DNA of 64,000 nt from Pseudomonadota bacterium (lineage in GTDB: Bacteria > Pseudomonadota > Gammaproteobacteria > Burkholderiales > Burkholderiaceae_C). The notes beneath the pieces are model-generated. The model was not told the origin of the DNA. It ran no database searches and saw nothing but the letters and a program-made list of their open reading frames with translations. The DNA lies in assembly GCA_018241895.1 (NCBI GenBank), contig JAFECX010000238.1, positions 2,996 through 66,995 of the forward strand, in the 5' to 3' direction. How positions within the stretch are numbered: position 1 is the stretch's first letter; every line of letters starts with the position of its first letter. A program made the position numbers and the translations under genes. Below, in pieces: positions 9,608-26,270 of this stretch.

Positions 9608-10801
9608 ATGAGCGACACATTGGCCAGCGCGAATCCCGACCACGTCGAGCCGAGCTTCTCCGGACGAGACGCAGTCGCCGACGACCGTGCCGTGTTGCTG
9701 GAGTACGCGACCGCGCTGGCGCAGCGCTGGCGCCTGGTGCTGTCGTTGCCGATCGCCGCTGCACTCGTCGCGTTCGCTTGCACTTTCCTGATTCCACGCA
9801 CCTACACCGCGAGAACGACGCTGATACCGCCTCAGCCGCAGCAGGGCGCTGCGGCGTCCGCGCTCGCGTCGCTGGGGGCGTTGACAGGGCTTGGCGGCGG
9901 CTTGACGGGCTTCAAGACCACTGCGGATCAGTTCGTGTCGCTGATGCAGAGCGTCCAGGCCCAGGATCACCTCATCGACCGATTCAAGCTGATGGACGTC
10001 TACGAGGCCGACTATCGAGAGCAGGCACGCCGCAAGCTGGGACGCGACACGCGCATCACGCTCGGCAAGAAGGACGGATTCATCACCGTCGAGACGGACG
10101 CCGAGACGCCCCGCATGGCCGCCGACATGGCGAACGAGTACGTCGAGGAACTGCGGCGCCTGGCGAGCGGGCTGGCGCTGACCGAAGCCAAGCAACGGCG
10201 TGTTTTCTTCGAGGGCGAACTGCAAAAGACCCGCGTCCTGTTGACGCAGGCTCAGGCGAGGCTGCAGCAAAGCGGGGTCGGCGCCGGTGCCATCAAGGCC
10301 GAGCCCAGGGCCGCAGCCGAGGGCTACGCCAGCCTGCGCGCGTCTGCCACCGCTGCGGAAGTGCGGCTGCAGACCCTGCGCCGCTCGCTGGCCGAATCCG
10401 CGCCCGAGGTGCAGCAGCAGCGCGCGATGCTCGATGCCTTGCGCGTCGAACTCGCCAAGGTCGAGCAGACCGACAAGGGCGGCGCCGATGTCGACTACAT
10501 CGGACGCTACCGCGAATTCAAGTACCAGGAGACATTGTTCGATCTGCTCGCCAAGCAGTACGAGCTGGCCCGTATCGACGAGAGTCGCGAGCACGCCCTG
10601 GTCCAGGTGATCGACGTCGCCACGGCACCGGAGCGGCCGAGCGGCCCACGCCGGATCCTGATCGCTGCGGGGGCCGCGGCAGCCACGCTGCTGGCACTTT
10701 GCTTCTGGCTGCTGCTCGTCGGCTCGTGGCGCCAGATGACGTCGGATGACCCCCGCGTCGTCCAGGCTGCCAGGCTGCGTGCAGCGCTGCGCGATCGATA
10801 G
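9608..10801 (+). CDS. wzz: Wzz/GumC-like polysaccharide co-polymerase (chain-length determinant)
   Basis: N- and C-terminal TM helices flanking a coiled-coil region; IDVATAPERPSGPRR motif; no kinase domain. Confidence 0.8.
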   Translation: MSDTLASANPDHVEPSFSGRDAVADDRAVLLEYATALAQRWRLVLSLPIAAALVAFACTFLIPRTYTARTTLIPPQPQQGAAASALASLGALTGLGGGLTGFKTTADQFVSLMQSVQAQDHLIDRFKLMDVYEADYREQARRKLGRDTRITLGKKDGFITVETDAETPRMAADMANEYVEELRRLASGLALTEAKQRRVFFEGELQKTRVLLTQAQARLQQSGVGAGAIKAEPRAAAEGYASLRASATAAEVRLQTLRRSLAESAPEVQQQRAMLDALRVELAKVEQTDKGGADVDYIGRYREFKYQETLFDLLAKQYELARIDESREHALVQVIDVATAPERPSGPRRILIAAGAAAATLLALCFWLLLVGSWRQMTSDDPRVVQAARLRAALRDR

Positions 10802-10810
10802 CGCGGGCGG

Positions 10811-12283
10811 CTACCGGGCCGCTTCGTCGATACGACGAGCCGATGCGGCGTTCGCACAAGGCGGATAGTGCGACTGGACAAGCTGACGATAGCCGGCATC
10901 GGCCCGATCCTCGGGTCCTGCGCGGTTGTCGGTGAAGCGGCAGCCGACCCCGTCCTTTCTCAGCGCATCCGCGCCGAGGACATCATCGCCAAGCGGTGGA
11001 CGGCCGGAGTCGACCCACTCGGCCAGCGCATCGAACGCGGCGGCCATTTCCGTGGCCGTGAAGGCACAGTGGCCGGTGTCACGCACGAGGCGCACGCTCA
11101 GTCGGGCCGATTGCCCCGCCGTCTGCGCCCGCAGCGCGTAGCGACGCTGCATGTCCGCCGGCACCAACAGATCACCCAGGGTGTGCATGCTGATGACGGG
11201 CGCGGTCAGCCTGCCTTCGATCAACGGCACCCAACGCAGCCCGGTCGGCCACGCTGGATTGGCATCGGCGTCCGGCGCGATGCGCCAGATGGCGGCATTC
11301 AGCGCATCCGCCTGCGGATCAGGTTGGCCCGGCTCCTCGAATCGGTACACCACTGAGCGCGTGTCGATCACGTTGCGCGCCAGCACGCCGTCGATCGTCG
11401 GCTCGAAATTCATCAGCTTGAAAAGGAGTTGGTGATGCGACGGATTGCCCCAGCCCTCCTCGAAGAACGGGCGCGTGCCACCGGTCAGTTGCCTCGAGAG
11501 CGCGCGCAACCGCGCAATCTGTGCATCGGGTTCGGCACTGTCGGACAGGCTGTCCAGGACGCGCTGGCGCCACGCGGCGTTCTGTTGGCCGTAGACCGCG
11601 CTCGGATACGCTTGGGCCGGTGCGCCCAGAAGATGCTGCAGAGCCACCTGGTAGGCGGCGAGGTATTGGTACCAACCGAGATCCGTGACCGTCCCGCACA
11701 TGGCCAACGCGCCGTCGTAGCGCTGCCGGTTGACTGCGCGCTCGACCACCTCGGCTTCGACCGCCGCCGCTGCGACATGGCCCCCCATAGACATCCCGGC
11801 GATGTAAAGGCGGCGCGGCGCGGGCAGCGGCCGCCCATGGGCCGCGGCGATGTCCCGGAAGTGCGTGGCGAGCTTGTTGGTGTCTTCGATGGCCGCCTGC
11901 ACGTCGTACATGTTGCGCGTGTAGCTGGAGGCAGCCCAGGCGACCCCGCGTTCGAGCAGATGCCGCCGCAGTACCGGGTTCTCCAGGTACAGCACGGGGC
12001 CGTCCCAGTACGGCCGTGCCCACAGCAGCAGGGTGCCGTTCCAGTTCTTCGGCACCTCCACCCGGTAGGCGGCACCGTCGATCCGACCGGTCCAGCGATC
12101 GCTCTCGGCCGGAGCATCGGGCATTGCCGGCAACGACGATTCGACCGGAACGCCGTAGGTGCGACTGTCATGGACCCGCGTCTGCATGACGGGCGGGGAC
12201 GCCTGGAGCTCGGCGCGCCCGTCGCGGCCGCCTCCGCATGCCGCCAGACCAAGAATCGAGCAGCCCGCGAACCATCTCGTCAA
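10811..12283 (-). CDS. Predicted lipoprotein alpha/beta-hydrolase
   Basis: TTG start 12283 with AGGAGG upstream; lipobox LAAC; nucleophile elbow GMSMGG; HTLGD and GHCAF candidates for Asp/His. Confidence 0.7.
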   Translation of the reverse strand: MTRWFAGCSILGLAACGGGRDGRAELQASPPVMQTRVHDSRTYGVPVESSLPAMPDAPAESDRWTGRIDGAAYRVEVPKNWNGTLLLWARPYWDGPVLYLENPVLRRHLLERGVAWAASSYTRNMYDVQAAIEDTNKLATHFRDIAAAHGRPLPAPRRLYIAGMSMGGHVAAAAVEAEVVERAVNRQRYDGALAMCGTVTDLGWYQYLAAYQVALQHLLGAPAQAYPSAVYGQQNAAWRQRVLDSLSDSAEPDAQIARLRALSRQLTGGTRPFFEEGWGNPSHHQLLFKLMNFEPTIDGVLARNVIDTRSVVYRFEEPGQPDPQADALNAAIWRIAPDADANPAWPTGLRWVPLIEGRLTAPVISMHTLGDLLVPADMQRRYALRAQTAGQSARLSVRLVRDTGHCAFTATEMAAAFDALAEWVDSGRPPLGDDVLGADALRKDGVGCRFTDNRAGPEDRADAGYRQLVQSHYPPCANAASARRIDEAAR

Positions 12284-12312
12284 GGTACGCGTCGCTTCCT
12301 CCTGGTGAGGCC

Positions 12313-14084
<1,772 letters not shown>

Positions 14085-14088
<4 letters not shown>

Positions 14089-14708
14089 GGTGGAGCCATC
14101 TTAGCGGGATGCGAGAGCGTCACAGCAGCCGCAGGCGACGCCGCGGGCTCTACCGGTGCCGGCTCGCCCACCTTGATCTCGCGCGTGACAAACCACCAGC
14201 GCCCTTGAGCGTGGGCAAAGAGCGTGAAGACACCGGTACGTGCGATGTCGAAGCGCGCCTCCAGCCGTGCCGGCTCACCGGCCTTCGGGCTGGCCGAGGC
14301 GATCCACACCGCTGGAGGCTGCTGCGGCGCCACTTCGCCGCTGGTGCGCGCGGCCAGCGTCGGGGGCCGGATCGGCTGGGCAGCGCCAGCGGTTGTTGGA
14401 GCCTTGGCAACGAAGGCGCCACGCGCCAGCACGAGCGCAGTGGTACCTGGCAGCTCACTGTAGGCGCGCGCCGACACGCGTCCGGCCAGGCTGACGTCCG
14501 GCAACTGCAGCGCCAAATGGGTGCTTGGCTGTGCGGACTGGGCGCCCAGCAGCGCCACCAGGCGGTCGAGGTCGGGCGCCTGCTCGACCTCGAGCGGAGT
14601 GAACTGTGCATGCGCCCCGCCGCACAACAGCAGGGCCAGCATCCAGGGCAGCCGCCGACGACGGGCCGGGCGACGTGCGGTGTCGATGGCCTGGAACCGG
14701 AAGGGCAT
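14085..14708 (-). CDS. Exported SoxY-fold (Ig-like) protein lacking the GGCGG arm
   Basis: Signal peptide RRRRLPWMLALLLCGGAHA; LQLPDV...SELPGTT and EARFDIARTGVFTLFAHAQGRWWFVTREIKV align by eye with SoxY; stop overlaps gspE start (ATGA); start uncertain (14708 or 14642). Confidence 0.6.
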
Positions 14709-14726
14709 GTGTCGTCGGCAGCCAGC

Positions 14727-14753
14727 AGAAGAAAGGGGGGCCGCAGCCCCCCA
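14727..14753 (-). terminator. Rho-independent terminator after the S-layer-like gene
   Basis: Minus strand GGGGGGC-TGCG-GCCCCCC followed by TTTCTTCT. Confidence 0.8.
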
Positions 14754-14788
14754 TTCGATCAAGCATGAGAACCGGAAGAAGCCGCAGC

Positions 14789-16807
14789 TTACTTCTTGAT
14801 GCCGGTCTGCGCGTCCTGGTGGTCCGTGCTCTCGGTGCTGGAGGACTCGAGGTTCATGAAGTCCGCCCCCTGGGCGCCGGAGACCTCGGACAGCAGGCTC
14901 GTCTTGGCGTTGACCAGGTAGTTCTGCACGCGCAGCGTCGAGGCCGACTCGGACGAGATGCGCAGACGCGCGTTGGCGTTGGCGTAATCACCTTCGCTCG
15001 CATAGCCATCCTTGCCCGCGACACCCCTGGACGCCGAGACCTGGCCTTGGGTCGCCATCAGATTGGCGATCTCACGGTCGCTCAGGAAGCGCGCAGCCCG
15101 CGGCGGCAGATCGAACAGCTTCACGTAGCGGCCATAGTTGCCGTCGGCGCGGATGTACTGCGCCCAGACGTCGGCCGTCTGCGTCTCGCTGTTGTTGATC
15201 ACGCGCACGTAGGTACGCCAGTCGCTGTCCCACGGAAACTCGCTGTAGTTGCGCACATCGATCTTGATGCCGCCGCCCAGACCCGCCAGCGGCGCCGGGC
15301 AGGAGCTGTTGGACTGCTCCGCACCGATCGCGCCGATCGAGTGATTCTTGTACACCGTCGCCACCGCGTTCTGGAAGCGGCTCTGGGGAATCAGGGCCGA
15401 CCCGCTGACCTGCATGCAGACATAGGCCCGGTCGCTCGTGCCTGGCGCCGTGATGTTGAACGGCGTCGCAACGGCGCCGCTGGCCGCAACCGCATCGAGA
15501 AGGCCGTTGTCGCCAGGACTCCCCGTCGCGCCCAAGATCGTCGCGAGTTGCGCCAGGTTGAAGGCGGCCGTGGCCGTCTTGCCGTCCGGCGAGAAGCTCG
15601 TCGCACCCCAGACCGTCGTCGCTGCGGGGTCGCAGACAGGTGACGTCGACATGCCGATGGCCGCGCCCGTCGAGAAGCCGTTGGTCGCGTCGACCTTGAT
15701 CTGCAGCGAACCGACGTCGACGTTGCCGTTGATCTCGTTGGGAACGCCGTTCAGATCGTTCGGACCGAACTTGTAGTAGGGCGTCAGGAGGTTCGTGTCG
15801 AAGGCATCCAGCGCACGGTTGCTGAACTTGACCGTCCCAAGCGCCATGGTCTTGGTCGTCATGCCCGCGGCCCAGCCACCCGGCAACGTGAGCGCGTTGT
15901 TGGCCGTGAGCGGATCGGTGTTGCGATCCACCGCCACACCCTTCTCCATATGCACCGCCAGCGCGGTCTGGAACTGGATGTAGCCGCCGTTGAGCAGCGA
16001 CTGGATCGGCGCGCCCTGCGACTCGCCCTGCACGCCGTCGCCGGCGCCGATGTAGTTGCGCCCGGTCACGGTGATCTTGCGGATGCCTTCGCCGCAGCCG
16101 TCCTCGACGTTGCCGGTGTTGCCCGCGTCGGTACCGCTCAGCACGGGCACCGCGTTGACAGCGGTCGCCAGCTTGGTCACCAGCGCATAGTCGGCCGCGC
16201 CGGCAACGCCGACACCCGTCACGGAAGCCAGAGCGGTGTTCCAGGGGGCAGCGGCACCGTCGCCGGGATTCTGACCGTTGAAGACGAGTTGCAGGTCGCC
16301 GATGGCGATGGGCGCGGCGGTGTTGTTCACCAGCCGGAACTTGTAGCGGTACTTCTGCTTGACGGTGGCGTTGGCGGCGTCGGCACCCGCATCCAGCGCG
16401 GGCCAGACATCGACCGACATCAACACCAAGGCCGCCTTGTTCGGCGGCACGTTACCAACGTCGGCAACAGGCAGCACGGGCACGACGGCATTGCCGTTGT
16501 TGCGGCGGTAGGCGGCCACCGTCTTGTAGGTGGCCACTTGTGCATCCCACTCGGCCGCACCGTCGCCGCCCAGCACGAGCGTGACGTTGAAGTCCTGTGT
16601 GGAACCGGCGTTGGCCGCCGGGCCGTTGTCGAAGCTGTACGACACCGTGGGCGCACGCAGCGTCTGCGTGATGGCAACGTTGGCCGAGATGGCCTCGCGT
16701 GCCACGGTCAGGCCCGACTGGCTGATGTTGGCTGCCAGAGCCGAACCCGCGCCAGCGCACAGGGCTCCCGCCGCGACGGCAACCTGCAACTTCTTCATCG
16801 TCTTCAT
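14789..16807 (-). CDS. Large Sec-exported protein, putative S-layer/surface-array subunit and T2SS substrate
   Basis: Signal peptide MKKLQVAVAAGALCAGAGSALA (alternative start 16798); A/G/N/T/V-rich; no catalytic motif recognised; C-terminal YVRVINNSETQTADVWAQ segment; own terminator. CDS is secure; the function is inferred. Confidence 0.6.
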   Translation of the reverse strand: MKTMKKLQVAVAAGALCAGAGSALAANISQSGLTVAREAISANVAITQTLRAPTVSYSFDNGPAANAGSTQDFNVTLVLGGDGAAEWDAQVATYKTVAAYRRNNGNAVVPVLPVADVGNVPPNKAALVLMSVDVWPALDAGADAANATVKQKYRYKFRLVNNTAAPIAIGDLQLVFNGQNPGDGAAAPWNTALASVTGVGVAGAADYALVTKLATAVNAVPVLSGTDAGNTGNVEDGCGEGIRKITVTGRNYIGAGDGVQGESQGAPIQSLLNGGYIQFQTALAVHMEKGVAVDRNTDPLTANNALTLPGGWAAGMTTKTMALGTVKFSNRALDAFDTNLLTPYYKFGPNDLNGVPNEINGNVDVGSLQIKVDATNGFSTGAAIGMSTSPVCDPAATTVWGATSFSPDGKTATAAFNLAQLATILGATGSPGDNGLLDAVAASGAVATPFNITAPGTSDRAYVCMQVSGSALIPQSRFQNAVATVYKNHSIGAIGAEQSNSSCPAPLAGLGGGIKIDVRNYSEFPWDSDWRTYVRVINNSETQTADVWAQYIRADGNYGRYVKLFDLPPRAARFLSDREIANLMATQGQVSASRGVAGKDGYASEGDYANANARLRISSESASTLRVQNYLVNAKTSLLSEVSGAQGADFMNLESSSTESTDHQDAQTGIKK

Positions 16808-17353
16808 TGAGTAGAACCCTCATGCTTGGTTAAACGCGGCGCTCCCTCCAACGGTGAGCGCACCGGTACACACATCGCCCACGCCCGGCATCAGGCGCTG
16901 ACCCGATCAGTCTAAGCGGCCCACTGTGCGTCCCACAAGACGGGAACGCCTCCTCCAGGCAGCTTCGGCGATCAAGTCGCCCGGATTCTGGCACAGGGGC
17001 GCACACCCCCCGACCGCGGGGTGCCCATTTGGGTGCTGGATGCGCATTCTTTCGTGCGGATCGTTGCATTTTCCTCACAGCGCGCCACGGTGCGAGTGAC
17101 TGCACGCCACAGCAAGTGCATCGCGCCGCGGCGTCCAGGCGCTGCCGGGCCAGGACGGGGCCAACGGCGGTGCATTTGTGCGAGCGACGCAACGCTCCCG
17201 TGCCGCGGTTGCCGCCGGCCGCCCGCGTGCGCATTCCATCTGCGAAGCCTATGGGCGCAAGGTCGCCCGCGCCCCGGCGCCCCATTGCCGGCATCCCCGC
17301 TCGCTACACTGCGTGCCGGGGCAATGCAGCAAGGACGCCCGACGGCGGCTGGG

Positions 17354-18550
17354 ATGCAGGAATTCGAATACGTTGCGCTGGACGCGCGGGGCAGACGACA
17401 GCGCGCCATGCTCGTCGCTGGCAGCGAGGCGCTGGCACTGGCGCAGATCCAGCAGCGCGGACTCACGGTGGTCGCGCTCACGCCGCATCGTTCGAGCGCC
17501 GGCGGCCGTGGCGCACAAAGGCAGGCCGCGATGAGCGCCGAGCGGCTGGGCGCGCTGCTGCAGGAGTTGGCCATGCTGGTGGAGGCGGGCGTGCCGCTGG
17601 CCGAAGCGGTGGCCACGCTGGCGGCCAGCCAGCCGCCCGGGCATGCGCTGGGCCAGTTGCTGGCGCGGCTGCGCGGCGGCGAGGCCTTCTCGGAGGCACT
17701 GGCGGGCTCGGGCCTGCGGCTGCCCGTGTTCGTGCTGCAACTGGTGCGCGCCGGCGAGGCCACGGGCGAGTTGCCACGCGCCCTGCGTGCGGCGGCCGAG
17801 CATCTCGAGGCCGAGGCGCAGTTCGCGCGCGAGGCGCGCAACGCGCTGCTGTACCCGGCAGTGCTGGTGATGAGCGGAGTGCTCGCCACGCTGGTGATGT
17901 TCGTCTTCGTGGTGCCCAAGTTCGCGGGCATCCTCTCCAACCCGAAGGCCGACTTGCCGCTGGTGAGCCGGTGGGTGCTCGGGCTGGGCTTGTGGCTCAC
18001 GCAGCACCAGGTGGTGGTCGGGCTGGCGCTGGCCGGCATGGTGGCACTTGGCGCCAGCCTCGCCGGGCGGCCCCGGGTGCGCGAAGCGGCATGGGAGCTG
18101 GCGACGCGCACGCCGGTGCTCGCCCGCTGGACCTGGCATGCGGAGATGGCGCGCTGGAGTTCGCTGCTCGCGGTGCTGCTCAACAGCCGCGTGCCGCTGC
18201 TCACCGCGCTGGCGCAGGCCAACGAAACCCTGCGGCGGCGTTCGCTGCGGCTGCGCGCGCAGCTGGTGCTGGCCGACGTGCGCGGCGGCAAGTCGCTGAG
18301 CCAAGCGCTGTCGGACCACGCTGTGCTGGACGCGGCCGGGCTCAACCTGCTGCGGGTGGGCGAGCGTGCCGGCACGCTCGGCCAGACGACCGCCGCGCTC
18401 GCGCGCACGCACACCCAGCACAGCCAGCAGCGGCTCAAACGGTTGCTGGTGCTGCTGGAACCCGTGACCATCCTGCTGATCTCAGTGGTGCTCGGGGGCA
18501 TCATGATTTCGGTCATGCTCGCCATCACGAGCTTGACCAACGTGCTATGA
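17354..18550 (+). CDS. gspF: T2SS inner-membrane platform protein F
   Basis: MQEFEYVALDARG, GEATGEL, ALLYPAVL, FVVPKF, GERAGTL, LLEPVTI. Confidence 0.95.
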   Translation: MQEFEYVALDARGRRQRAMLVAGSEALALAQIQQRGLTVVALTPHRSSAGGRGAQRQAAMSAERLGALLQELAMLVEAGVPLAEAVATLAASQPPGHALGQLLARLRGGEAFSEALAGSGLRLPVFVLQLVRAGEATGELPRALRAAAEHLEAEAQFAREARNALLYPAVLVMSGVLATLVMFVFVVPKFAGILSNPKADLPLVSRWVLGLGLWLTQHQVVVGLALAGMVALGASLAGRPRVREAAWELATRTPVLARWTWHAEMARWSSLLAVLLNSRVPLLTALAQANETLRRRSLRLRAQLVLADVRGGKSLSQALSDHAVLDAAGLNLLRVGERAGTLGQTTAALARTHTQHSQQRLKRLLVLLEPVTILLISVVLGGIMISVMLAITSLTNVL

Positions 18551-18630
18551 CGCCACGATCGCGCCCCGGGCGCTCGGGCACAATTCCGCCGCGATGAAAT
18601 CGCCGCGCCGCGTACGCGACGCGGCACGGA

Positions 18631-19092
18631 GTGACAGGACGAGTGCGCACGCCGAACCGACCCCGATTGCATGCCGGCCACCACTGGCGCGGCTTCACGT
18701 TGCTCGAAATGCTGGTGGTGATGGTGATCATCGGGCTGCTGGCCAGCTTGGTGGGCCCGCGCATCTTCGGCAAGGTCGACAGCTCCAAGATTCAGACGGC
18801 GCAAACGCAGGCCAAGATGCTCAAGAGCGCCATCGCCATCATGCAACTAGACATCGGCGGCACGCCGCCTGCGGACCAGGGGCTGCGCTGGCTCGTCGAG
18901 CGACCGACGGTGGAGCCGCAGGCTTCGCAGTGGAAGGGCCCCTATCTGGACGGCGCCCTGCCCGACGACCCCTGGGGCCACCCGTACATCCTCAAGGTGC
19001 CCGGCATCGGCGGACAGCCGTACTCGGTGATCTCCTACGGGCCCGACGGCAAGGAAGGCGGCGAGGGCGCGGGCGCGGACATCGTGCAATGA
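18631..19092 (+). CDS. gspG: T2SS major pseudopilin G
   Basis: GFTLLEMLVV prepilin motif; WKGPYL, DPWGHPY, SYGPDGKEGGEG..ADI. Confidence 0.95.
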   Translation: MTGRVRTPNRPRLHAGHHWRGFTLLEMLVVMVIIGLLASLVGPRIFGKVDSSKIQTAQTQAKMLKSAIAIMQLDIGGTPPADQGLRWLVERPTVEPQASQWKGPYLDGALPDDPWGHPYILKVPGIGGQPYSVISYGPDGKEGGEGAGADIVQ

Positions 19093-19535
19093 TGCGGCAT
19101 GCCCAGCGCCAGGCGGCCGGCTTCACGCTGGTCGAGATGCTGGTCGTAATGGTGATCCTAGGTCTGCTCGCCGGGGTGGCGTTGCCCGCCATGCAGCGCT
19201 GGCACGACGCTGTGCAGGCGCGCTCCGAGGGCGCGGCGATGGTGCAGGCGGTGCGCGCAGGCGCCTTTGCCGCTGCCGCCAACCGGCTGGGCGTGCGGCT
19301 GGACGCACGCTCGTTCGACGGCAGCCAGGCAGGCTCCGACGCGGCGCCGAGCCTGCCCGTGCCCCTGCCTGCCGGCTGGCGGCTCGAGAAGATCGAGCCG
19401 GCCCTGCTGTTGGGCAGCGGGCTGTGCAGCGGCGGCCACGCCGTTCTTCGAACGCCCGGCGGGGAGTTGATGCGCCTGGCCGTGTCCGAAGGCGACTGCA
19501 CGGTCAGCCTGCAGTCGGAGCCGGCGGCGCCGTGA
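19089..19535 (+). CDS. gspH: T2SS minor pseudopilin H
   Basis: GFTLVEMLVV; ATGA overlap with gspG. Confidence 0.8.
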   Translation: MMRHAQRQAAGFTLVEMLVVMVILGLLAGVALPAMQRWHDAVQARSEGAAMVQAVRAGAFAAAANRLGVRLDARSFDGSQAGSDAAPSLPVPLPAGWRLEKIEPALLLGSGLCSGGHAVLRTPGGELMRLAVSEGDCTVSLQSEPAAP

Positions 19536-19975
19536 GATCGGCCCGGCGCAGCACGCGCGGGCTCAGCATGATCGAGGTGCTGGCCGCGATGGTGATCTTC
19601 AGCACCGGCGCGACAGTACTGTTCGGATGGATCGGTCAGACCAGCGAGCGGCTGGCGCGGCTGGCGGGAGAGCAACGCGAACTGTTCACCGACATGGTCG
19701 TGCTGGAGTACATGAAGACGGTCAACCCGATGCTCGAGCCGGCGGGTGAGATACGCCTGAGCGACGGTGTGCTCCTGCGCTGGCAATCTGAGCGGCTTCC
19801 GGGCGATGACACGGTACGCGGCCCAGGCTCGCTCTACGAGCTCGGGCTGTATCGCGTGAAGGTGCGGGTGAGCGCGCCGCAGCAGGGCGTGCGCGAGTCC
19901 AGCGTGGAGCTTGCGGGCTGGCGGCAGGTGCGCCAGCCCTCGTCGCAAGGACCGATCCGCGAGGCCGGCACGTGA
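19532..19975 (+). CDS. gspI: T2SS minor pseudopilin I
   Basis: RGLSMIEVLAAM; GTGA overlap. Confidence 0.8.
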   Translation: MRSARRSTRGLSMIEVLAAMVIFSTGATVLFGWIGQTSERLARLAGEQRELFTDMVVLEYMKTVNPMLEPAGEIRLSDGVLLRWQSERLPGDDTVRGPGSLYELGLYRVKVRVSAPQQGVRESSVELAGWRQVRQPSSQGPIREAGT

Positions 19976-20598
19976 GCACACCGAAGCGGCGCAGGCACGG
20001 GCTCACACTGGTGGAGTTGCTGGTGTCGCTCACGATCATGGGCTTCGTGATGACGCTCGTCTCCCAGGCCGTGTATCAGACCGGCCAGATCGTGCGGGTG
20101 GCCGACGAGTCGGTGGTCCATCTGGCCGCACGCTGGAGCCGAGGGTGGGCGGTGACGGCGCTAGTGGCGAATCTGGCAGCACCGCGCGAAGGGAAGCTGC
20201 TGCCGATGACCGGTTCCAGCGCCAAGCTGAACGGCTATTCGACCGCGCCCGTGGACGCGCCGGATTCGGGCGTGCAGCCGTTCAGCCTGCAGTTGCGCGG
20301 CGATGACGCCGGCGGCAGCGAACTCGTGTACGTTCCGGCGCGACCGGGCGCACAGCCCATCATCGTCGCGCACTGGACGTCGCCGGTGGAGTTCAGGTAT
20401 CGCGCGGCGGACGGGCAACGCAGCGATCGCTGGCCGACGTGGACGCGCAGTGGTCGAGACACGGTGTTGCTGCCCACGGCGATCGAGCTTACGGAGGCCG
20501 GCGGCGACGTCCTGGTGATGGCTTTCGAGGTGCCGGCCGCCGGTGCGCGCCAGGCCGAAGAGAGTAGCGGCCCGTTTCGCACTGACGACAGCCCGTGA
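19972..20598 (+). CDS. gspJ: T2SS minor pseudopilin J
   Basis: HGLTLVELLVSL; operon position. Confidence 0.8.
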   Translation: MSTPKRRRHGLTLVELLVSLTIMGFVMTLVSQAVYQTGQIVRVADESVVHLAARWSRGWAVTALVANLAAPREGKLLPMTGSSAKLNGYSTAPVDAPDSGVQPFSLQLRGDDAGGSELVYVPARPGAQPIIVAHWTSPVEFRYRAADGQRSDRWPTWTRSGRDTVLLPTAIELTEAGGDVLVMAFEVPAAGARQAEESSGPFRTDDSP

Positions 20599-21650
20599 AC
20601 GCATCGAAACGCGGCAGCAGCCGCTACAGGCCGCGCGCGCGGCCCGTCGGCGGGTTTGCTCTGGTCATCGTGCTGTGGGTGCTCGCCGGGCTGACGGTGG
20701 TCGCGGTCTCGATCGCCGCCACCGTGCAGAGCAACAGCCAGAGCGTGAGGCTGCTGCGCGACCGGCTGCGCGCCGAACGCGCCTTCCTCTCTACGGGCAG
20801 CCGGCTGAAGGTGATCGGCGCGACATCGATCGCGCTCCCCTACTCCTACCTGAGCGCACGCGGGCAGGTGTTCCTGGACGGACGCGTATCGCGCGTAAAT
20901 GCCGACGAAACCGTGGTGCTGCAGGACGGCCGCGGGCTGATGAGCCTCGAGCGGCCGGAGGGCGCGGCGTGGCAGCGCTTCCTGGTGAGCTGCGGCGCCA
21001 CGGCGGACGAGGTCGAGCGGCTGCAGGATGCACTCGCCGACTACGAGGACGGCGACTCGTTGCGCCGCTTGCATGGCGCAGAGCGCGACGACTATCGCGA
21101 CACCGCGCTGCCGGCGCCGCGCAACGCACCTGTGCTCACGCGCGACGAGCTGTGGCGTGTGCTAGGCTGGCCGGGCCTGCGCCGCCGCTGGGATGCCGCC
21201 GGCTGCGGCGAGAACGTGGTGGCCGGCACGGCGCAGGGATTCAATGCGAACACAGCACCGCTGACCGTACTGCTTGCTCATGGCTGGGACGAGATGCAGG
21301 CGCGCGCATTGATCGACGCACGACGCGCCGGATTGCCGCTGCTGACGGGCGGGCTGCTCGACATCGGTGGCGGCCCCGCCCCGATGTTGCGCGACAGCAG
21401 CCTGCCAGGCGACCGCATCCGGGTCCGCCACCGGTTGGCATCGCTAGAATGGGCGCTTCAGTACGATCTGCAGTTCACTCCGAGCGATCCGGGCGGCCCT
21501 TGGCGCATGCACGACGTGCAGGTGGTGCGATCGGCGCCACAGCAGCCCGAACCCCCGGGAGCCTCGGATTTCCCTCCGCTCGACTACGTGGCCTCGCAAC
21601 AGGATAGGGTCCGGTTGAATGCTGTACCCACTTCACCTATTGGCCGCTGA
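20595..21650 (+). CDS. gspK: T2SS minor pseudopilin K
   Basis: GFALVIVLWVL (no Glu5, typical of K), LADYEDGD, GAERDDY, PRNAP, NANTAP. Confidence 0.9.
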   Translation: MNASKRGSSRYRPRARPVGGFALVIVLWVLAGLTVVAVSIAATVQSNSQSVRLLRDRLRAERAFLSTGSRLKVIGATSIALPYSYLSARGQVFLDGRVSRVNADETVVLQDGRGLMSLERPEGAAWQRFLVSCGATADEVERLQDALADYEDGDSLRRLHGAERDDYRDTALPAPRNAPVLTRDELWRVLGWPGLRRRWDAAGCGENVVAGTAQGFNANTAPLTVLLAHGWDEMQARALIDARRAGLPLLTGGLLDIGGGPAPMLRDSSLPGDRIRVRHRLASLEWALQYDLQFTPSDPGGPWRMHDVQVVRSAPQQPEPPGASDFPPLDYVASQQDRVRLNAVPTSPIGR

Positions 21651-22677
21651 CGGGAAGGACGGCTGGCAGGTCGTCGACACCGGGCACAGAAGCTGGCGAC
21701 GCACGTTGCTCGTGCCGCGGCAATTGTGCTTGTTCGAATCGATACCGTGCGGCAGCGTGCACTGGCATGAGTTGACGGGCTTTGCGCAGCTCCAGGCGCG
21801 CAGGCTTTCCCCGTTCGAGCGCACCGGAGCGTCGGCATTGCGTCGCGCGGGCCGCCTGCATCTGTGGCTGTGGGACGCGGCGGAGGTCGACGCGATGCTT
21901 GCCGCCCAGACGAAGGATGCCACCTCCGTGCAGCGTGCCGAGGCGCTGTATCTGCCTTGGCCCGTCGCCGGCAGCAAGCTGCGGCGCACCACGCAGATCG
22001 AAGAGGAAGTGCATGTGGACGAAGCGGGCGCATTGCTCGACAGCGAACCGACGGGTCACGCGCCTGGTCTGGATCTGTCGGTGCTGCTGCCGCGCGCGGC
22101 CGGACATGACTGGCTGGGCGGCTCCCTGGATGCCGCTGCGGTGCGCCCGGCCTGGGCGGGCACGGCGGCCCTGCTGAACACGGTCGGCATGACCGCGGCC
22201 ATGGCCATGCTGGTCTACCTGGGTTATGAAGGCGGTCGGCTGTGGGGCACGCTGAACACGGCCGAGTTGCTGGAGGAGCGCGTTGCACGGCAGGCAGCCA
22301 CGCGTGGCGAGTCCGCCCGGATCGAACGGGCGGCCTTGGCCGACGCGCAGTGGATCGATGCGTATCGGCGGGCCACGGCGCAACTCGACGTCGCCGCCGC
22401 GCTCGATGCCTTGCGCGCGCCGATGGAGGCGTACGGCGTCGCGATCCGGGAACTGGATGCCGCGGGCACCGAGTTGCGGCTGACGCTGGTGAGTGCAGGC
22501 GGCGAGATCCGCATTGCCGAGTTGCTACAGGCCTTGCGGACCGTCGCCGGCGTGCGCGGCGCGAGCCTGCATCAGCACAAGGAACTGGAGTGGGCGGTCT
22601 ACATCGTCGATATGCCCGGTTTCGCTTCTGGTGCGCGCCTGCGACAGGGATCGGAGACCCAGCGTGCCGCGCATTGA
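21619..22677 (+). CDS. gspL: T2SS protein L-like
   Basis: Large cytoplasmic N-domain, single TM, periplasmic domain; position after gspK; sequence divergent. Confidence 0.6.
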   Translation: MLYPLHLLAADGKDGWQVVDTGHRSWRRTLLVPRQLCLFESIPCGSVHWHELTGFAQLQARRLSPFERTGASALRRAGRLHLWLWDAAEVDAMLAAQTKDATSVQRAEALYLPWPVAGSKLRRTTQIEEEVHVDEAGALLDSEPTGHAPGLDLSVLLPRAAGHDWLGGSLDAAAVRPAWAGTAALLNTVGMTAAMAMLVYLGYEGGRLWGTLNTAELLEERVARQAATRGESARIERAALADAQWIDAYRRATAQLDVAAALDALRAPMEAYGVAIRELDAAGTELRLTLVSAGGEIRIAELLQALRTVAGVRGASLHQHKELEWAVYIVDMPGFASGARLRQGSETQRAAH

Positions 22678-23257
22678 CGCAGCGCGCAGCAGCGGCACTC
22701 TGCCGGGCTTACTGGCGATCGCCGTGGCCGTACTGCTGTGGTGGCAGGCGGACCAGTTACATTCGCGACGTATCCTCGCTGGGGAGCGTGTCGCAGCCGC
22801 AAGGCAATTACTGCGTGCCGAGCGCACGACGGCCGATCCGGCCAGTCTTCGAACACGTCGCCTACAGTTGCAGACCGAGCGCCGGGCGCTCGAGCAGCGG
22901 CTGGTCGAGCACGCCGACATGGGGTTGCTACGCGCGCAGCTCTACTACGATCTGCGCGAGCGCTGCTACGCTGTGAAGCTGAATTGCCTGATCCGGCTGG
23001 CCGAGCTCGAGGCGGCGGACAGGCCCAGGGGCGCCGCATCAGACACCGCCAGCGACGATTCGATGGCCAGGCTGGGAGTGCGCCGACTGCGGGCGACGAT
23101 CTCCGGCCTGCTGGGCGAACAGGAACTTCAGGATGTGTTGGCTGCCTTTTCGGCGGACGAGCAGCGGGTGTGGCGCTTTAACCGCGTGCAACTCAAGACG
23201 CGGGCGTTCGAAATCGATATCGAACGGCTGGTTCAGCCTGCTAGTGGGCGGCAATGA
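22664..23257 (+). CDS. gspM: T2SS protein M-like
   Basis: N-terminal TM, coiled coil, small C-domain; position after gspL; GTG start inferred. Confidence 0.55.
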   Translation: MPRIDAARSSGTLPGLLAIAVAVLLWWQADQLHSRRILAGERVAAARQLLRAERTTADPASLRTRRLQLQTERRALEQRLVEHADMGLLRAQLYYDLRERCYAVKLNCLIRLAELEAADRPRGAASDTASDDSMARLGVRRLRATISGLLGEQELQDVLAAFSADEQRVWRFNRVQLKTRAFEIDIERLVQPASGRQ

Positions 23258-23805
23258 CCGCTGGCGTGCGACAGCCAAACGTGCCATCCGATCCCGTGCG
23301 TCCACGCGGTCTGCGGCACGGCTTGCAACTCGGGTTGCTGGGCGTGGCGCTGGGGTCCGCCAGTATCGCCACGGGTTATTTTCTGGCCACGCGCGAAGGC
23401 GAGACCCAGCCCGCTGCGACTTCAGCCGCCGCAGCGGCCAGCAGCCCGACTGCCCTCGTTGCCGAACGGTCCTCCGCGGGCCACGACGAGGTTCCGGCGG
23501 CGACGGCGCACGAACGCAACGAACGGGACACTCTGCGCTGGCCCCTGTGGGCATACCAGTTGATGGACCCGCTGCCGGTCAGGGAGCCGCCGTTGACGCC
23601 GGTGCCGTGGCGTCTGCTGGGGGCTGCATTCTTCGACGGCAAGTGGCACGCTATCGTGCAGCGCCAGGGCGTGGCGCAGCCGGACTACTACAAGACCGGC
23701 GATAAGCTGCCGGGCGGTTATCTCATCCAGGAAATCACGCAGGAAGACCTGACGTTGCGCGCAGGCCACCGCGAGATCGTGCTCTCCTACATCGGCTCGA
23801 GGTGA
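23254..23805 (+). CDS. GspC/XpsN/PilP-like T2SS protein
   Basis: N-terminal TM, Ala-rich linker, C-terminal YKTGDKLPGGYLIQEITQEDLTL resembling the GspC-HR/PilP domain; directly before the secretin. Confidence 0.6.
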   Translation: MTAGVRQPNVPSDPVRPRGLRHGLQLGLLGVALGSASIATGYFLATREGETQPAATSAAAAASSPTALVAERSSAGHDEVPAATAHERNERDTLRWPLWAYQLMDPLPVREPPLTPVPWRLLGAAFFDGKWHAIVQRQGVAQPDYYKTGDKLPGGYLIQEITQEDLTLRAGHREIVLSYIGSR

Positions 23806-26270
23806 AGTCGTTGCGCCTTTCTTCCCCTGTCGCATTGGCCGCGCTGGCGCTGCTGAGCGCCTGCCAGACACCCCTGAAACCGCTGCCCGGACCGCTGCAG
23901 TACGAGCACTCGCCAGCCGTCGAGGGCAACATCCTGACCGGCGAACCGGCCCCCACCGGCACGCAGATTTCGACGGTGCCGCAGCCGCCCCGCGCAGCGC
24001 CTGCGGCAAGCGCCGCGCCCCATCCGGTTGCGGCAGCGTCTGCGCCTGCGAGCATCGAACCCGTGTCGATCGCGATCGAGCAGACGCCGCTGCCGACCTT
24101 CATCCAGATCCTGTACGGCAGCGTGCTGAAGGTGCCCTATACCATCGACCCGGCGGTGATGTCACGGACTGACCCGGTCACGTTCAAGAGCTCGCAACCG
24201 CTACCGCGCGGGCGCATCCAACAACTGGCGCGCAGCCTGCTGCAGAGCTACGGATTGACGGTGGCGGATTTCGATGGGCTGGTGCGCATCGCACCCGTGG
24301 GCAGCCAGCAGGCGCCATCGTCGATTCCCGTGCTGCGTTCGGCCGAATCACCGATGCCGCCCGGTGACCAGCAGCCGGTGTTCCAGTACGTCGAGCTGCA
24401 GGCGGTCAAGGTCTCGGACATGACGCAATGGCTCAAGACGATGGTGGGCTCGCGCGTCACCCTGCAGGAGGATGCGGCACGCAACTCCTTCCTGCTGTCC
24501 GGCAACGCGCGCGACGTGCGCGCCGCACTGGATCTGATCGACGCGATGGACCAGCCGCGCCTGCGCGGGCGCTCGGCGCGCCGCTTCTCGCCCGTCAACA
24601 TCGGTGCGCAAGACCTGGCGATGAGGCTCAGCGAGGTGCTCGGGGGGCAAGGCTACGCGGTCTCCGTGAACTCGTCGAACACAGCCGCCATCTTCATCTT
24701 GCCGGTGCCGTCGATCAACAGCATCATTGTCTTCACGCACAACGACCAGGTGATGGCGCATGTGCAACGCTGGGTGCTGGAACTGGATCGGCCAAGCCGC
24801 AACGCGGCCTCGAACAGCCCTCTGTTCACGTACCCGGTCAAGTTCGCCGACGCGCAGGAACTCGCGCGAACGCTCGGCGAATTGCTCGGCGGAGTGGTCT
24901 CCGCGCCGGCCAGCACTGCGGGCGGCACCGGCCAGACCGGTGCGCCCCGCGTGAGCGGTGGGCGCGTCGTCGTGAACAACGCCACGAATACCCTCATCAT
25001 CCGCGGCACCGGTCCCGACGAGCAGTTGCAGATCCGGCAGTTGCTGCGAGAGCTCGATCGGCCCACCAAGTCCGCGATGATCGAGGTCGTGGTGGCCGAA
25101 CTGTCCATGGGGGAGCTCGAGCGCCTGGGGGTGCAGTGGTCGTACCTCGATCCCTTCAATCAGCCCGACAGCCGCTCGGCGCAGATCGGAGGCGGCGGTT
25201 TGTCGATCTCGTACGCGAGCAATGCGCGGCAACTGCTCGCGGCGATCAACGCGCTGGCCTCCGAGAACAAGGGACGCGTACTGTCGAACCCGAAGGTCAT
25301 GGCACGTAACGGCGAGACCGCCACGATCACCGTCGGCCGCGAAGTGCCGGTGCTGACGGGCCAACAGAGCACACTCACGGGCTCGTCTCCGATCAATGGC
25401 GGCGGCACGGGCATCGCCACCGGTGTGATCCAGACGATCCAATACCGTAACACGGGGGTGAATCTGCGGGTGAGACCGGTGATCAACTCCGGCAATCGGC
25501 TCGACCTGGAGGTGAGCCAGGAGGTCAGCAGCGTCGCGGCGGGCGAAACCGGCATCGGGTCGAACCCGATCATCTCGAACCGCAAGATCGAGACCAAGCT
25601 GTCGCTGCGTGACGGATCGACCGTCCTGCTCGGAGGGCTGATCTCGCGCGATACGTCCACCACCAATGCGGGCGTGCCGCTGCTCAAGGACATCCCGGGA
25701 CTGGGAGCGTTGTTCAGGAACCGCCAGGATTCGATCAATCAGACCGAACTGCTGGTCATGATCACGCCGTACGTGATCAATGATGATTTCGAGTCCGAGG
25801 AAATCACCGCCGCGCTGCACAAGACCTTCGGCGATTGGGCCGCCGACATCCCGGTGGCCCGCAAGGTGCCGACGCCGGAGGGCGCGGCCAACGAAGTGAG
25901 GGACGAACCGCTGAAGCATTCCACGTCGGCGACGCCGGATCGAGATGCGGCGTTGCCGCAGACGAAGCCGAGCGAGCCAACCTCCCTCCAGGTGCCAGGC
26001 GCCGTGCGCAAGGACAAGTCGCTGCCCGACGAGACCGGCGTCGAGATGAGCAAGCCGGTTGCGGCTCCGGGCGTTGCTGGATCGCAAGCCACGGTACCTC
26101 CGCGCGTCACGGCAACGCCTGCCGCCGCCCCAGCGAGTGCGCCCGAGGAGTTGTCGCCGCAACCCGCGCCAAGTGGCCAGAGCATCGACACACCTGTCGG
26201 GCCAGGCCGACCGGTAACCGATCCAAAGGTTCTGGAAGAGCTCAGGCGACTGATGAAGGAAGGCAGGTAG
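23802..26270 (+). CDS. gspD: T2SS secretin D, lipoprotein type, with long Pro/Ala-rich C-terminal tail
   Basis: Lipobox LSAC; IEVVVAE, LSNPKVMARNGETATITVG, YRNTGVNLRVRP, GVPLLKDIPGLGALF, TELLVMITPYVI. Confidence 0.95.
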   Translation: MKSLRLSSPVALAALALLSACQTPLKPLPGPLQYEHSPAVEGNILTGEPAPTGTQISTVPQPPRAAPAASAAPHPVAAASAPASIEPVSIAIEQTPLPTFIQILYGSVLKVPYTIDPAVMSRTDPVTFKSSQPLPRGRIQQLARSLLQSYGLTVADFDGLVRIAPVGSQQAPSSIPVLRSAESPMPPGDQQPVFQYVELQAVKVSDMTQWLKTMVGSRVTLQEDAARNSFLLSGNARDVRAALDLIDAMDQPRLRGRSARRFSPVNIGAQDLAMRLSEVLGGQGYAVSVNSSNTAAIFILPVPSINSIIVFTHNDQVMAHVQRWVLELDRPSRNAASNSPLFTYPVKFADAQELARTLGELLGGVVSAPASTAGGTGQTGAPRVSGGRVVVNNATNTLIIRGTGPDEQLQIRQLLRELDRPTKSAMIEVVVAELSMGELERLGVQWSYLDPFNQPDSRSAQIGGGGLSISYASNARQLLAAINALASENKGRVLSNPKVMARNGETATITVGREVPVLTGQQSTLTGSSPINGGGTGIATGVIQTIQYRNTGVNLRVRPVINSGNRLDLEVSQEVSSVAAGETGIGSNPIISNRKIETKLSLRDGSTVLLGGLISRDTSTTNAGVPLLKDIPGLGALFRNRQDSINQTELLVMITPYVINDDFESEEITAALHKTFGDWAADIPVARKVPTPEGAANEVRDEPLKHSTSATPDRDAALPQTKPSEPTSLQVPGAVRKDKSLPDETGVEMSKPVAAPGVAGSQATVPPRVTATPAAAPASAPEELSPQPAPSGQSIDTPVGPGRPVTDPKVLEELRRLMKEGR

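What the first reader, a model, noticed from the sequence alone, without database searches (positions are those of the whole stretch)
14085..14708. SoxY-fold protein without the cysteine swinging arm, coupled to the T2SS ATPase
Seen: LQLPDVSLAGRVSARAYSELPGTTALVL and EARFDIARTGVFTLFAHAQGRWWFVTREIKV parallel the SoxY pattern (xAPDIAENGAVVPVxxxSxIPGTTxIxI ... STRIKMxxTSxVxAxxxAxGKxxxxxKEVKV). Where SoxY ends in TIGGCGG, this protein continues into a Pro/Ala tail, and the mature part has no Cys. No other sox genes are in the window. Its stop overlaps the gspE start (ATGA). Established: SoxY needs the C-terminal Cys to carry sulfur. Inference: the fold has been repurposed, for example as a periplasmic chaperone or substrate adaptor for the S-layer protein, or as a pilotin-like factor. 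Automated annotation would probably mislabel it as sulfur oxidation.
Basis: partly seen in the sequence, partly recalled or inferred. Interest (0 to 1): 0.7.

Follow-up and report, generated by a model that had tools for sequence, protein, structure and literature searches.

The report
Cysteine-less SoxY relative in secretion operon
A small exported protein descended from the sulfur-carrier SoxY has lost its sulfur-binding cysteine. It is instead a fixed partner gene of the motor ATPase of a type II secretion system that appears dedicated to exporting a surface-layer protein, so an old fold has most likely been given a new job in protein export.

Summary
Window 14085-14708 (-) encodes a 207-aa exported protein. 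Its stop overlaps the gspE start (ATGA) and its mature part has no Cys. Homology to SoxY holds three ways: Foldseek (top 14 PDB hits are SoxY, E 2e-7 to 1.5e-5), family profile against Chlorobium SoxY (E 1.3e-9), and hhalign against canonical SoxYs (97.9 %, E 3.5e-13). The alignment ends just before GGCGG. Pfam and NCBIfam give no hit, so annotation calls it 'hypothetical' rather than mislabelling it. Canonical soxYZA lies on another contig.

In about 15 independent loci the gene sits directly upstream of gspE. That includes 10 of 10 GspE orthologs at 47 % identity or more, and 0 of 20 more distant ones. It usually follows a highly transcribed 672-aa all-beta secreted protein that is probably an S-layer subunit. 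Compact variants are the first gene of a soxY-like-gspEFGHIJK..D operon.

In a published Piscinibacter sakaiensis transposon screen, insertions in the ortholog behave like T2SS mutants; polarity on gspE is not excluded.

Best reading: a periplasmic accessory or adaptor of an S-layer-dedicated T2SS. A pilotin role is unlikely because GspD is itself a lipoprotein. The mechanism remains inferred.

The parts
14085..14708 (-). Gene for the 207-aa Cys-less SoxY-like exported protein (stop TGA at 14085-14087)
   Evidence: Translation. Homologs. AF2 model. Foldseek hits to SoxY. Profile and hhalign matches to SoxY.
14607..14708 (-). Signal peptide (residues 1-34, ...GGAHA|QFTP). It is Arg-rich in the n-region and most likely Sec/SPase I; a Tat signal is not excluded.
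   Evidence: Sequence. The alignment shows a conserved A-x-A/AQ cleavage region and a non-conserved Cys29. This is a manual reading; no SignalP was available.
14409..14588 (-). N-terminal half of the SoxY-like core: two short helices plus strands 65-96, with motifs LPDVxLxG and SELPGTT
   Evidence: pLDDT 90-97. Aligns to SoxY '...APDIAENG...LPG(V/T)T'.
14310..14408 (-). Pro/Ala-rich insertion of about 33 residues, predicted disordered. It replaces the short EKNPN loop of SoxY and is absent from the compact relatives.
   Evidence: pLDDT about 51-57. Gap in the hhalign alignment. Compact forms in L029 and L032.
14166..14309 (-). C-terminal half of the core (strands 135-181) with the family-specific motif FAxAQGRWW/F and the final strand REIKV, equivalent to SoxY KEIKV
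   Evidence: pLDDT 87-96. Invariant columns. Aligned to SoxY residues 70-117.
14088..14165 (-). Variable, disordered C-terminal tail in place of the SoxY GGCGG swinging arm; it has no Cys. Its last codons overlap the gspE start region.
   Evidence: Of 59 family members, none has GGCGG and 56 have no Cys outside the signal-peptide region.
14735..14752 (-). Intrinsic-terminator-like hairpin (GGGGGGC-TGCG-GCCCCCC followed by TTTCTTCT) between the 672-aa gene and the SoxY-like gene. It is a probable attenuator that steps expression down.
   Evidence: RNA contig depth is 150-700 over the 672-aa gene against 5-30 over gspE and gspF-K.
14789..16807 (-). 672-aa Sec-exported, all-beta, multidomain protein, probably the S-layer subunit and main cargo of the system
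   Evidence: The homolog in P. sakaiensis (gene 1_1831) is annotated as S-layer protein in bioRxiv 10.1101/2025.11.11.687616.
12313..14088 (-). gspE-type T2SS ATPase, whose start overlaps the stop of the SoxY-like gene (ATGA)
   Evidence: PF00437 at E 5.5e-128; TIGR02533 at 510 bits, below the equivalog cut-off.
17021..23805 (+). Divergent operon gspF-G-H-I-J-K, then L-like, M-like and short C-like (HR-only) genes
   Evidence: Pfam hits to T2SSF, T2SSG, N_methyl and T2SSK_1st, plus a weak T2SSC hit. The order is conserved in relatives.
23802..26270 (+). gspD secretin with an N-terminal lipobox (LLSAC|Q) and a Pro/Ala-rich C-terminal tail of about 160 aa
   Evidence: Pfam Secretin and Secretin_N. 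Sequence.

Best explanation
The gene encodes a periplasmic protein descended from the sulfur carrier SoxY. It keeps the SoxY beta-sandwich and N-terminal helices but has lost the thiol-bearing GGCGG arm, so it cannot carry sulfur in the SoxY manner.

It has been recruited as a clade-specific accessory component of a type II secretion system. That system is embedded in a cell-surface glycan locus and appears dedicated to exporting a very abundant 672-aa all-beta surface (S-layer-type) protein. The gene is co-transcribed with, and probably translationally coupled to, the ATPase gene gspE, so it is made at machine-level rather than cargo-level amounts.

Proposed mechanism (inferred): like SoxY, which works by docking onto partner proteins (SoxZ and the Sox enzymes), it acts as a protein-protein adaptor in the periplasm. 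It would bridge the cargo, or keep it assembly-incompetent, and dock it to the periplasmic parts of the machine. Those parts are the short HR-only GspC-like protein, which lacks a PDZ or cargo-binding domain, and the N-domains of the lipoprotein secretin.

Shown: fold, homology, loss of Cys, strict gspE linkage, high transcript-contig depth over the neighbouring 672-aa (cargo) gene, and a T2SS-like transposon phenotype of the ortholog.
Inferred: periplasmic location, the binding partners and the adaptor role.
For: Fold and homology.

No Cys and no GGCGG across the family.

A canonical soxYZA is kept on another contig, so this copy is an extra, diverged paralog.

Genomic linkage:
- The gene lies directly upstream of gspE in the window, L001/L002, L003/L004, L006 (an Inhella MAG), eight further genomes of the same bacterial family, and the metagenome loci L070-L073.
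- Among the 30 best GspE matches in 301 family genomes, 10 of 10 with 47 % identity or more carry it and 0 of 20 below that do.
- Compact variants are the first gene of a soxY-like-gspE-F-G-H-I-J-K-..-D operon. This ties the gene to the machine rather than to the cargo gene.

Expression context: a terminator lies between the cargo gene and this gene, and RNA contig depth over the cargo gene is roughly 5- to 100-fold (typically 20- to 50-fold) that over the T2SS genes.

Genetics, from P. sakaiensis RB-TnSeq (bioRxiv 10.1101/2025.11.11.687616, Table S3):
- The ortholog 1_1832 matches the family HMM at E 1.2e-47.
- Its insertions give log2FC +2.72, BH p 0.010, from 51 strains at 2 positions.
- This has the same sign and size as secretin (+3.45), gspG (+2.70), gspE (+2.57) and gspK-like (+3.93), and is larger than the S-layer gene itself (+1.04).
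Against:
- The transposon phenotype rests on only 2 insertion positions and may simply be polar on gspE immediately downstream.
- Sister T2SS clades with related cargo proteins work without this gene, so it is not universally required for this kind of system.
- The protein evolves fast (30-38 % identity where GspE keeps about 60 %), as surface-exposed or secreted proteins also do.
- The ORF has no obvious Shine-Dalgarno sequence and a weak codon-position GC signal.
Confidence: 0.55

Rival explanations
1. It is itself a cargo of the T2SS: a minor secreted or surface component, such as an anchor or lattice-nucleating partner of the S-layer protein that links it to the LPS or glycan made by the flanking genes. 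On this view it is not part of the machine.
For: It is exported, is a small Ig-like beta-sandwich and evolves fast. It usually lies just after the S-layer-type gene and is covered by the same high-depth RNA contigs in two of three runs. The locus is embedded in glycan genes.
Against: In compact-form operons it heads the T2SS operon, next to gspE. In one of them the surface-protein gene lies, by inference from contig ends, beyond gspD at the far end. The invariant neighbour is gspE, not the surface protein. In P. sakaiensis its mutant effect (+2.72) resembles T2SS genes, not the S-layer gene (+1.04), although polarity could explain that.
Confidence: 0.2
2. It is a pilotin-like factor that targets or stabilises the secretin GspD in the outer membrane, for example by binding its long C-terminal tail.
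For: GspD has an unusually long Pro/Ala-rich tail of about 160 aa after the secretin domain. No classical pilotin gene is seen in the cluster.
Against: Known pilotins are outer-membrane lipoproteins. This family has no conserved lipobox Cys. GspD itself has a lipobox in the window and in P. sakaiensis. From general knowledge, the liposecretin HxcQ is self-piloting.
Confidence: 0.08
3. It still works in sulfur or redox chemistry as an unusual carrier, and its position next to gspE is incidental.
For: It shows genuine homology to SoxY. Three distant family members have Cys near the C-terminus: P0039 and P0043 (ACExxxC) and P0019. Divergent SoxY paralogs with altered arms are known in sulfur oxidisers (PMC11237559).
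Against: 56 of 59 members have no Cys in the mature protein and none has GGCGG. Sox intermediates are bound covalently to the SoxY cysteine (PMC5336275). There are no sox genes in the window. gspE linkage is 100 % over about 15 independent loci.
Confidence: 0.03
4. It is a decaying or non-functional ORF carried along between two real genes.
For: Weak codon-position GC signal and no clear ribosome-binding site.
Against: About 60 homologs have invariant core motifs, variable loops and intact frames down to about 30 % identity. The AF2 core is confident. The position is conserved.
Confidence: 0.02

Closest known systems
SoxY, sulfur carrier of the Sox thiosulfate-oxidation system (Pfam PF13501; PDB 2nnc, 2ox5/2oxg/2oxh chain Y)
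   Same: It has the same beta-sandwich fold with N-terminal helices (Foldseek TM 0.75-0.82). Sequence-profile homology runs colinearly over the whole mature SoxY domain up to the last strand K/REIKV. It is a small exported protein. One compact relative even keeps a Tat-like TRRRVF motif.
   Different: It has no C-terminal GGCGG and no carrier cysteine. It has no SoxZ partner gene or sox neighbours. It scores below any Pfam or NCBIfam threshold. Most members carry an extra Pro-rich loop of about 33 residues and a variable tail. It is always next to gspE.
Dedicated S-layer type II secretion systems: Aeromonas Sps/VapA, Pseudoalteromonas Slr4, Paracidovorax/Delftia NpdA-gsp1
   Same: A complete T2SS gene set sits beside one abundant Sec-exported surface-array protein. 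In Aeromonas this lies inside an O-antigen/LPS locus, with extra 'hypothetical' genes in the cluster (PMC4483657, PMC7821379, PMC10765051).
   Different: None of these papers reports a SoxY-like accessory gene. NpdA of P. citrulli shows no detectable sequence similarity to the 672-aa protein or to any fetched locus. Whether those systems encode an analogous small protein was not testable here.
Piscinibacter (Ideonella) sakaiensis gene CVM085_Ideonella_sakaiensis_1_1832
   Same: It is an ortholog: family HMM E 1.2e-47, 37 % identity. It has the same position between the S-layer gene 1_1831 and gspE 1_1833. [quoted passage not shown]
   Different: The preprint does not note the SoxY relationship or discuss the gene individually. 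Its phenotype may be polar.
Periplasmic beta-sandwich parts of T2SS and T4P machines (GspC HR domain, PilP) and pilotins (GspS/AspS)
   Same: They are small periplasmic beta-rich proteins encoded in T2SS clusters that mediate contacts with the secretin.
   Different: It has no membrane anchor or lipobox and no Pfam T2SSC similarity. A separate short GspC-like gene already exists upstream of gspD.

Membership tests
SoxY sulfur carrier (PF13501) | SoxY-type beta-sandwich fold | tested here: met
   The AF2 core has pLDDT above 90. The top 14 Foldseek PDB hits are SoxY chains, with E 1.9e-7 to 1.5e-5 and target TM 0.75-0.82.
SoxY sulfur carrier (PF13501) | Detectable sequence homology to SoxY | tested here: met
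   The family profile hits 2nnc_A at E 1.3e-9. hhalign against 6 canonical SoxYs gives 97.9 %, E 3.5e-13. The family profile also picks up canonical GGCGG SoxYs in related genomes at E 1e-6 to 1e-10.
SoxY sulfur carrier (PF13501) | Passes the curated family model (Pfam gathering score or an NCBIfam model) | tested here: not met
   No Pfam or NCBIfam hit at E 0.1 or better. A PF13501 search of the whole genome at E 10 or better finds only the canonical gene on contig C80.
SoxY sulfur carrier (PF13501) | C-terminal GGCGG swinging arm with the sulfur-binding cysteine | tested here: not met
   The tail is GEPAPVEP...KMAPP and the mature protein has no Cys. Of 59 relatives, none has GGCGG and 56 have no mature Cys.
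SoxY sulfur carrier (PF13501) | Adjacent soxZ partner and sox gene context | tested here: not met
   There is no SoxZ or SoxA similarity anywhere in the window. The neighbours are T2SS and glycan genes. Canonical soxY-soxZ-soxA lie on contig C80.
SoxY sulfur carrier (PF13501) | Twin-arginine (Tat) signal peptide | tested here: inconclusive
   The window protein has an RRRR run but no S/T-R-R-x-F-L-K consensus, and many homologs lack RR. The compact relative in L032 has TRRRVF. No predictor was available.
T2SS-associated accessory component | Conserved physical linkage and co-orientation with core gsp genes across divergent genomes | tested here: met
   It lies directly upstream of gspE in all of about 15 independent loci. 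Among the best GspE matches, 10 of 10 at 47 % identity or more carry it and 0 of 20 below that do.
T2SS-associated accessory component | Loss of function gives the same phenotype as loss of core T2SS genes | tested here: inconclusive
   Literature only. In the P. sakaiensis RB-TnSeq, ortholog 1_1832 has log2FC +2.72 (BH p 0.010, 2 positions) against +2.6 to +3.9 for gspD, G, E and K. Polarity on gspE is not excluded.
Pilotin (GspS/AspS-type) | Outer-membrane lipoprotein (lipobox Cys) that pilots a non-lipidated secretin | tested here: not met
   The family has no conserved lipobox. The secretin itself has one, LLSAC|Q.
GspC/PilP | N-terminal membrane anchor plus HR domain | tested here: not met
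   It has a cleavable signal peptide and no T2SSC hit. A separate C-like gene lies at 23254-23805.

The most novel reading that the evidence does not exclude
The SoxY-derived protein is the cargo receptor of this T2SS subclass. On this reading it is an obligatory periplasmic subunit that recognises the folded S-layer protein, using the surface that in SoxY docks SoxZ and the Sox enzymes, and hands it to the HR-only GspC-like protein and the liposecretin. That would be a defined one-cargo, one-receptor T2SS in which the long-unresolved question of how T2SS substrates are recognised could be dissected. It would also be a clear case of a redox carrier protein turned into a secretion-machine part.
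Probability: 0.2. Interest if true: 0.75.

Novelty: new variant of a known kind. Interest (0 to 1): 0.55.

Why it matters
How type II secretion systems pick their cargo is still poorly understood, and S-layer export through private T2SSs has been described only at the gene-cluster level. This family gives a small, structurally defined accessory protein with no Pfam or NCBIfam model. It tracks one GspE clade exactly and has a first genetic hint of function in P. sakaiensis, which now has genetic tools and is an organism of biotechnological interest. There, removing the S-layer system improves conjugation. The family is also a clean example of neofunctionalisation: a SoxY paralog that kept the fold, lost the catalytic thiol, and moved from sulfur oxidation to envelope biogenesis while the canonical soxYZ stays in the same genome.

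Tried and rejected
- Pfam and NCBIfam scans of the candidate, the 672-aa protein and the L/M-like genes gave no hits.
- The search for related loci with the broad alignment A2 failed for lack of a conserved stretch. With A1 it returned a single locus.
- An order-level genome scan (400 genomes) found no member outside the window's own bacterial family at E 1e-12 or better.
- I suspected that the related T2SS clusters lacking the gene were NpdA loci. NpdA of P. citrulli, taken from the supplement of PMC10765051, shows no similarity to the 672-aa protein family or to any fetched locus, so that idea was dropped.
- Foldseek of the 672-aa model against PDB gave no meaningful match; all TM scores were below 0.2.
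- The long multi-stretch hits P0017 and P0032 from the representative search are repetitive Ig-like adhesins that score 1-10 bits per repeat. They are not family members.
- The apparent conservation of a C-terminal Arg or Pro was considered as a functional feature. It was set aside as probably imposed by the overlapping gspE start and ribosome-binding region.
- RNA contig depth cannot resolve the expression level of the candidate itself, because it is a contig-wide mean.
As a result, a SoxZ (PF08770) scan of the whole genome and a whole-genome paralog search could not be run. Only the window was checked.

Full report
**1. What is at the coordinates**

The minus-strand ORF 14085..14708 encodes 207 aa. 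It begins with an Arg-rich n-region, a hydrophobic core and an AHA|QF cleavage-type site. The only cysteine (residue 29) lies in that signal peptide and is not conserved in homologs.

The stop codon overlaps the ATG of the next gene (ATGA). That gene, 12313..14088, is a T2SSE-family ATPase: PF00437 at E 5.5e-128, and closest to the GspE model TIGR02533 but below its equivalog cut-off.

The codon-position GC signal of the ORF is weak. It is nevertheless a real gene:
- 13 close homologs and about 48 representative homologs have invariant core motifs and variable loops.
- Wastewater metatranscriptome contigs cover it.

**2. Is it SoxY-like?**

Yes, on three independent lines.
- **Structure.** An AlphaFold2 model built on the family alignment has a confident core (residues about 40-100 and 134-181, pLDDT 87-97). 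A disordered Pro-rich loop (101-133) and a disordered tail flank it. The 14 best Foldseek matches in the PDB are all SoxY chains (Chlorobium 2nnc; Paracoccus 2ox5, 2oxg, 2oxh chain Y), with E 1.9e-7 to 1.5e-5 and target TM 0.75-0.82. Unrelated Ig-like folds come next.
- **Profile against PDB sequences.** A profile of 35 family members hits Chlorobium SoxY at E 1.3e-9 in two colinear blocks.
- **Profile against profile.** Comparison with six canonical SoxYs from the same bacterial family gives probability 97.9 %, E 3.5e-13 over 118 columns. It runs from the N-terminal helix to the last strand (REIKV against KEIKV) and stops exactly where SoxY continues into TLGGCGG.

The curated models do not see it: there is no Pfam or NCBIfam hit at E 0.1. 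A PF13501 search of the whole genome finds only a canonical soxY on another contig. That gene ends in GGCGG and is followed by soxZ and soxA. The protein is therefore a diverged extra paralog, and public sources label relatives 'hypothetical protein'.

**3. Loss of the SoxY active site**

Sox intermediates are carried covalently on the SoxY cysteine (PMC5336275). Of 59 family members, none has GGCGG and 56 have no cysteine outside the signal peptide. Three distant members have Cys near the C-terminus or in the core (P0039 and P0043: ACExxxC; P0019). The window contains no SoxZ or SoxA similarity.

**4. Context in the window**

The gene lies in a complete T2SS cluster split into two divergent operons.
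- **Plus strand:** gspF, G, H, I, J, K, then L-like, M-like and a short HR-only C-like gene, then the secretin gspD.
- **Minus strand:**
  - A 672-aa Sec-exported protein (14789..16807).
  - A strong intrinsic-terminator hairpin (14752..14735).
  - The SoxY-like gene and gspE.
  - A lipoprotein alpha/beta-hydrolase-like gene, conserved only in the closest relatives.

Glycan genes (Wzz, glycosyltransferases) flank the cluster.

The 672-aa protein has no Pfam or PDB sequence match. It is predicted to be all-beta and multidomain, with no fold match in the PDB. In three wastewater metatranscriptomes its contigs have depth 150-700, against 5-30 for the gsp genes (contig depth is a rough measure). 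GspD carries a lipobox (LLSAC|Q).

**5. Comparative genomics**
- **Linkage to gspE is absolute.**
  - The gene lies immediately upstream of a gspE ortholog in every locus recovered.
  - These are: metagenome contigs at 68 % and about 59 % identity; an Inhella MAG; seven genomes with strong hits among 301 genomes of the same family; and three more distant metagenome members at 31-36 % identity.
- **An unbiased test gives the same answer.** I took the 30 best GspE matches in the 301 genomes and scanned their flanks with the family HMM. All 10 with 47 % identity or more to the window's GspE have the gene directly upstream. None of the next 20 does. In those, gspD, a 672-aa-like gene or glycosyltransferase genes precede gspE.
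- **The surface-protein link is looser.** Eight of those ten loci also have a 672-aa homolog just upstream.
- **Two genomes carry compact forms.**
  - These (G159, G025) lack the Pro-rich loop, and one has a Tat-like TRRRVF and the same ATGA overlap.
  - There the gene is the first gene of a soxY-like-gspE-F-G-...-D operon.
  - In G025 a surface-protein gene on another contig is inferred, from the contig ends, to follow gspD. In G159 a 543-aa exported protein follows gspD.
  - In one metagenomic locus the order is D - small ORF - SoxY-like - E, with the 672-aa homolog elsewhere on the contig.
  - The invariant partner is therefore gspE and the machine, not the cargo gene.
- **Distribution is patchy.**
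  - The family is rare: about 3 % of genomes in this bacterial family, and none in 400 genomes sampled across the rest of the order at E 1e-12 or better.
  - It is absent from both same-genus genomes sampled.

**6. Literature**

Private T2SSs for S-layer proteins are known:
- Aeromonas Sps/VapA, inside the O-antigen cluster, with extra hypothetical genes (PMC4483657).
- Slr4 of Pseudoalteromonas (PMC7821379).
- NpdA of Paracidovorax and Delftia (PMC10765051).

None mentions a SoxY-like gene, and full-text searches for SoxY with type II secretion, or for 'SoxY-like', found nothing relevant. NpdA itself is not similar to the 672-aa protein.

[quoted passage not shown] In its Table S3, gene 1_1832 lies between the S-layer protein 1_1831 and GspE 1_1833. 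It is an ortholog of the candidate: family HMM E 1.2e-47, 37 % identity.

| P. sakaiensis gene | log2 fold change |
|---|---|
| 1_1832 (SoxY-like ortholog) | +2.72 (BH p 0.010; 51 strains, 2 positions) |
| secretin | +3.45 |
| gspK-like | +3.93 |
| gspG | +2.70 |
| gspE | +2.57 |
| S-layer gene 1_1831 | +1.04 |

. The phenotype groups the gene with the machine, but insertions could be polar on gspE. The preprint itself lists polar effects as a limitation.

**7. Interpretation**

The best-supported reading is a periplasmic accessory or adaptor protein of an S-layer-dedicated T2SS, derived from SoxY by loss of the carrier arm (confidence about 0.55). The mechanism is inferred. SoxY functions by docking to SoxZ and the Sox enzymes, and the retained beta-sandwich could dock cargo or machine parts. 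The GspC-like protein here is short and lacks a PDZ-type cargo-binding domain.

Rivals:
- A co-secreted minor S-layer component or anchor (0.2).
- A pilotin-like factor (0.08). This is weakened by the absence of a lipobox and by the lipoprotein secretin.
- A residual sulfur or redox role (0.03).
- A non-functional ORF (0.02).

Sister T2SS clades lack the gene, so it is a lineage-specific addition rather than a universal requirement.

**8. Limits**
- No multimer prediction, localisation predictor or raw RNA reads were available.
Whole-genome checks for a SoxZ-like partner or further paralogs were therefore not done.

**Verdict:** The 'repurposed SoxY fold coupled to the T2SS' interpretation is supported in outline. 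Its specific sub-hypotheses are untested or weakened, and the mislabelling prediction is wrong.

Noticed in passing
window 23802-26270 (+): The secretin GspD has an N-terminal lipobox (LLSAC|QTP), a Pro/Ala-rich linker and a low-complexity tail of about 160 aa after the secretin domain. The P. sakaiensis ortholog also has a lipobox (LLAAC|A). It is probably a self-piloting liposecretin.
   Followed up: partly
window 10811-12310 (-): A lipoprotein (…LGLAAC|GGG) with weak alpha/beta-hydrolase similarity lies directly after gspE. It is conserved only in the closest relatives (74 % identity in L003/L004) and absent from the other loci, so it is not part of the conserved module.
   Followed up: partly
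window 12313-14088 (-), residues 1-200 of GspE: The N-terminal 200 residues or so of this GspE give no Pfam T2SSE_N/MshEN hit. The L-like (21619-22677) and M-like (about 22674-23257) genes are also invisible to Pfam. The whole machine is a divergent T2SS subtype.
   Followed up: no
L029 9847-10386 and L032 9850-10407: These are compact Cys-less SoxY-like proteins without the Pro-rich loop, placed as the first gene of the T2SS operon. The L032 protein keeps a Tat-like TRRRVF motif. They look like intermediates between canonical SoxY and the window's form.
   Followed up: partly
proteins P0039, P0043 (and P0019): Distant family members have two cysteines right after the last strand (KLACETRRC, KLACEPPGC). 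This could be a disulfide or a remnant of a thiol arm. Their genomic context could not be retrieved.
   Followed up: no
L038 1806-3437 (G159): A 543-aa Ala/Thr/Gly-rich exported protein lies after gspD in a compact-form operon. It shares N-terminal (A|ASITGS) and C-terminal (RLRL...LQVQSF...EVSG) motifs with the 672-aa protein but is not detected by that family's HMM. It may be a further branch of the same surface-protein superfamily.
   Followed up: partly
whole cluster, window about 10800-26300: Both same-genus genomes in the sample lack the SoxY-like gene and the 672-aa gene, while scattered genera of the family have them. The distribution is patchy, suggesting horizontal movement of the S-layer/T2SS island within glycan loci. 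The organism itself occurs in many activated-sludge and wastewater runs.
   Followed up: partly
window 15524, 15533, 16728: RNA-run contigs carry C>A, C>A and T>C differences inside the 672-aa gene in all or most runs. These are probably strain variants of the surface protein in wastewater populations.
   Followed up: no
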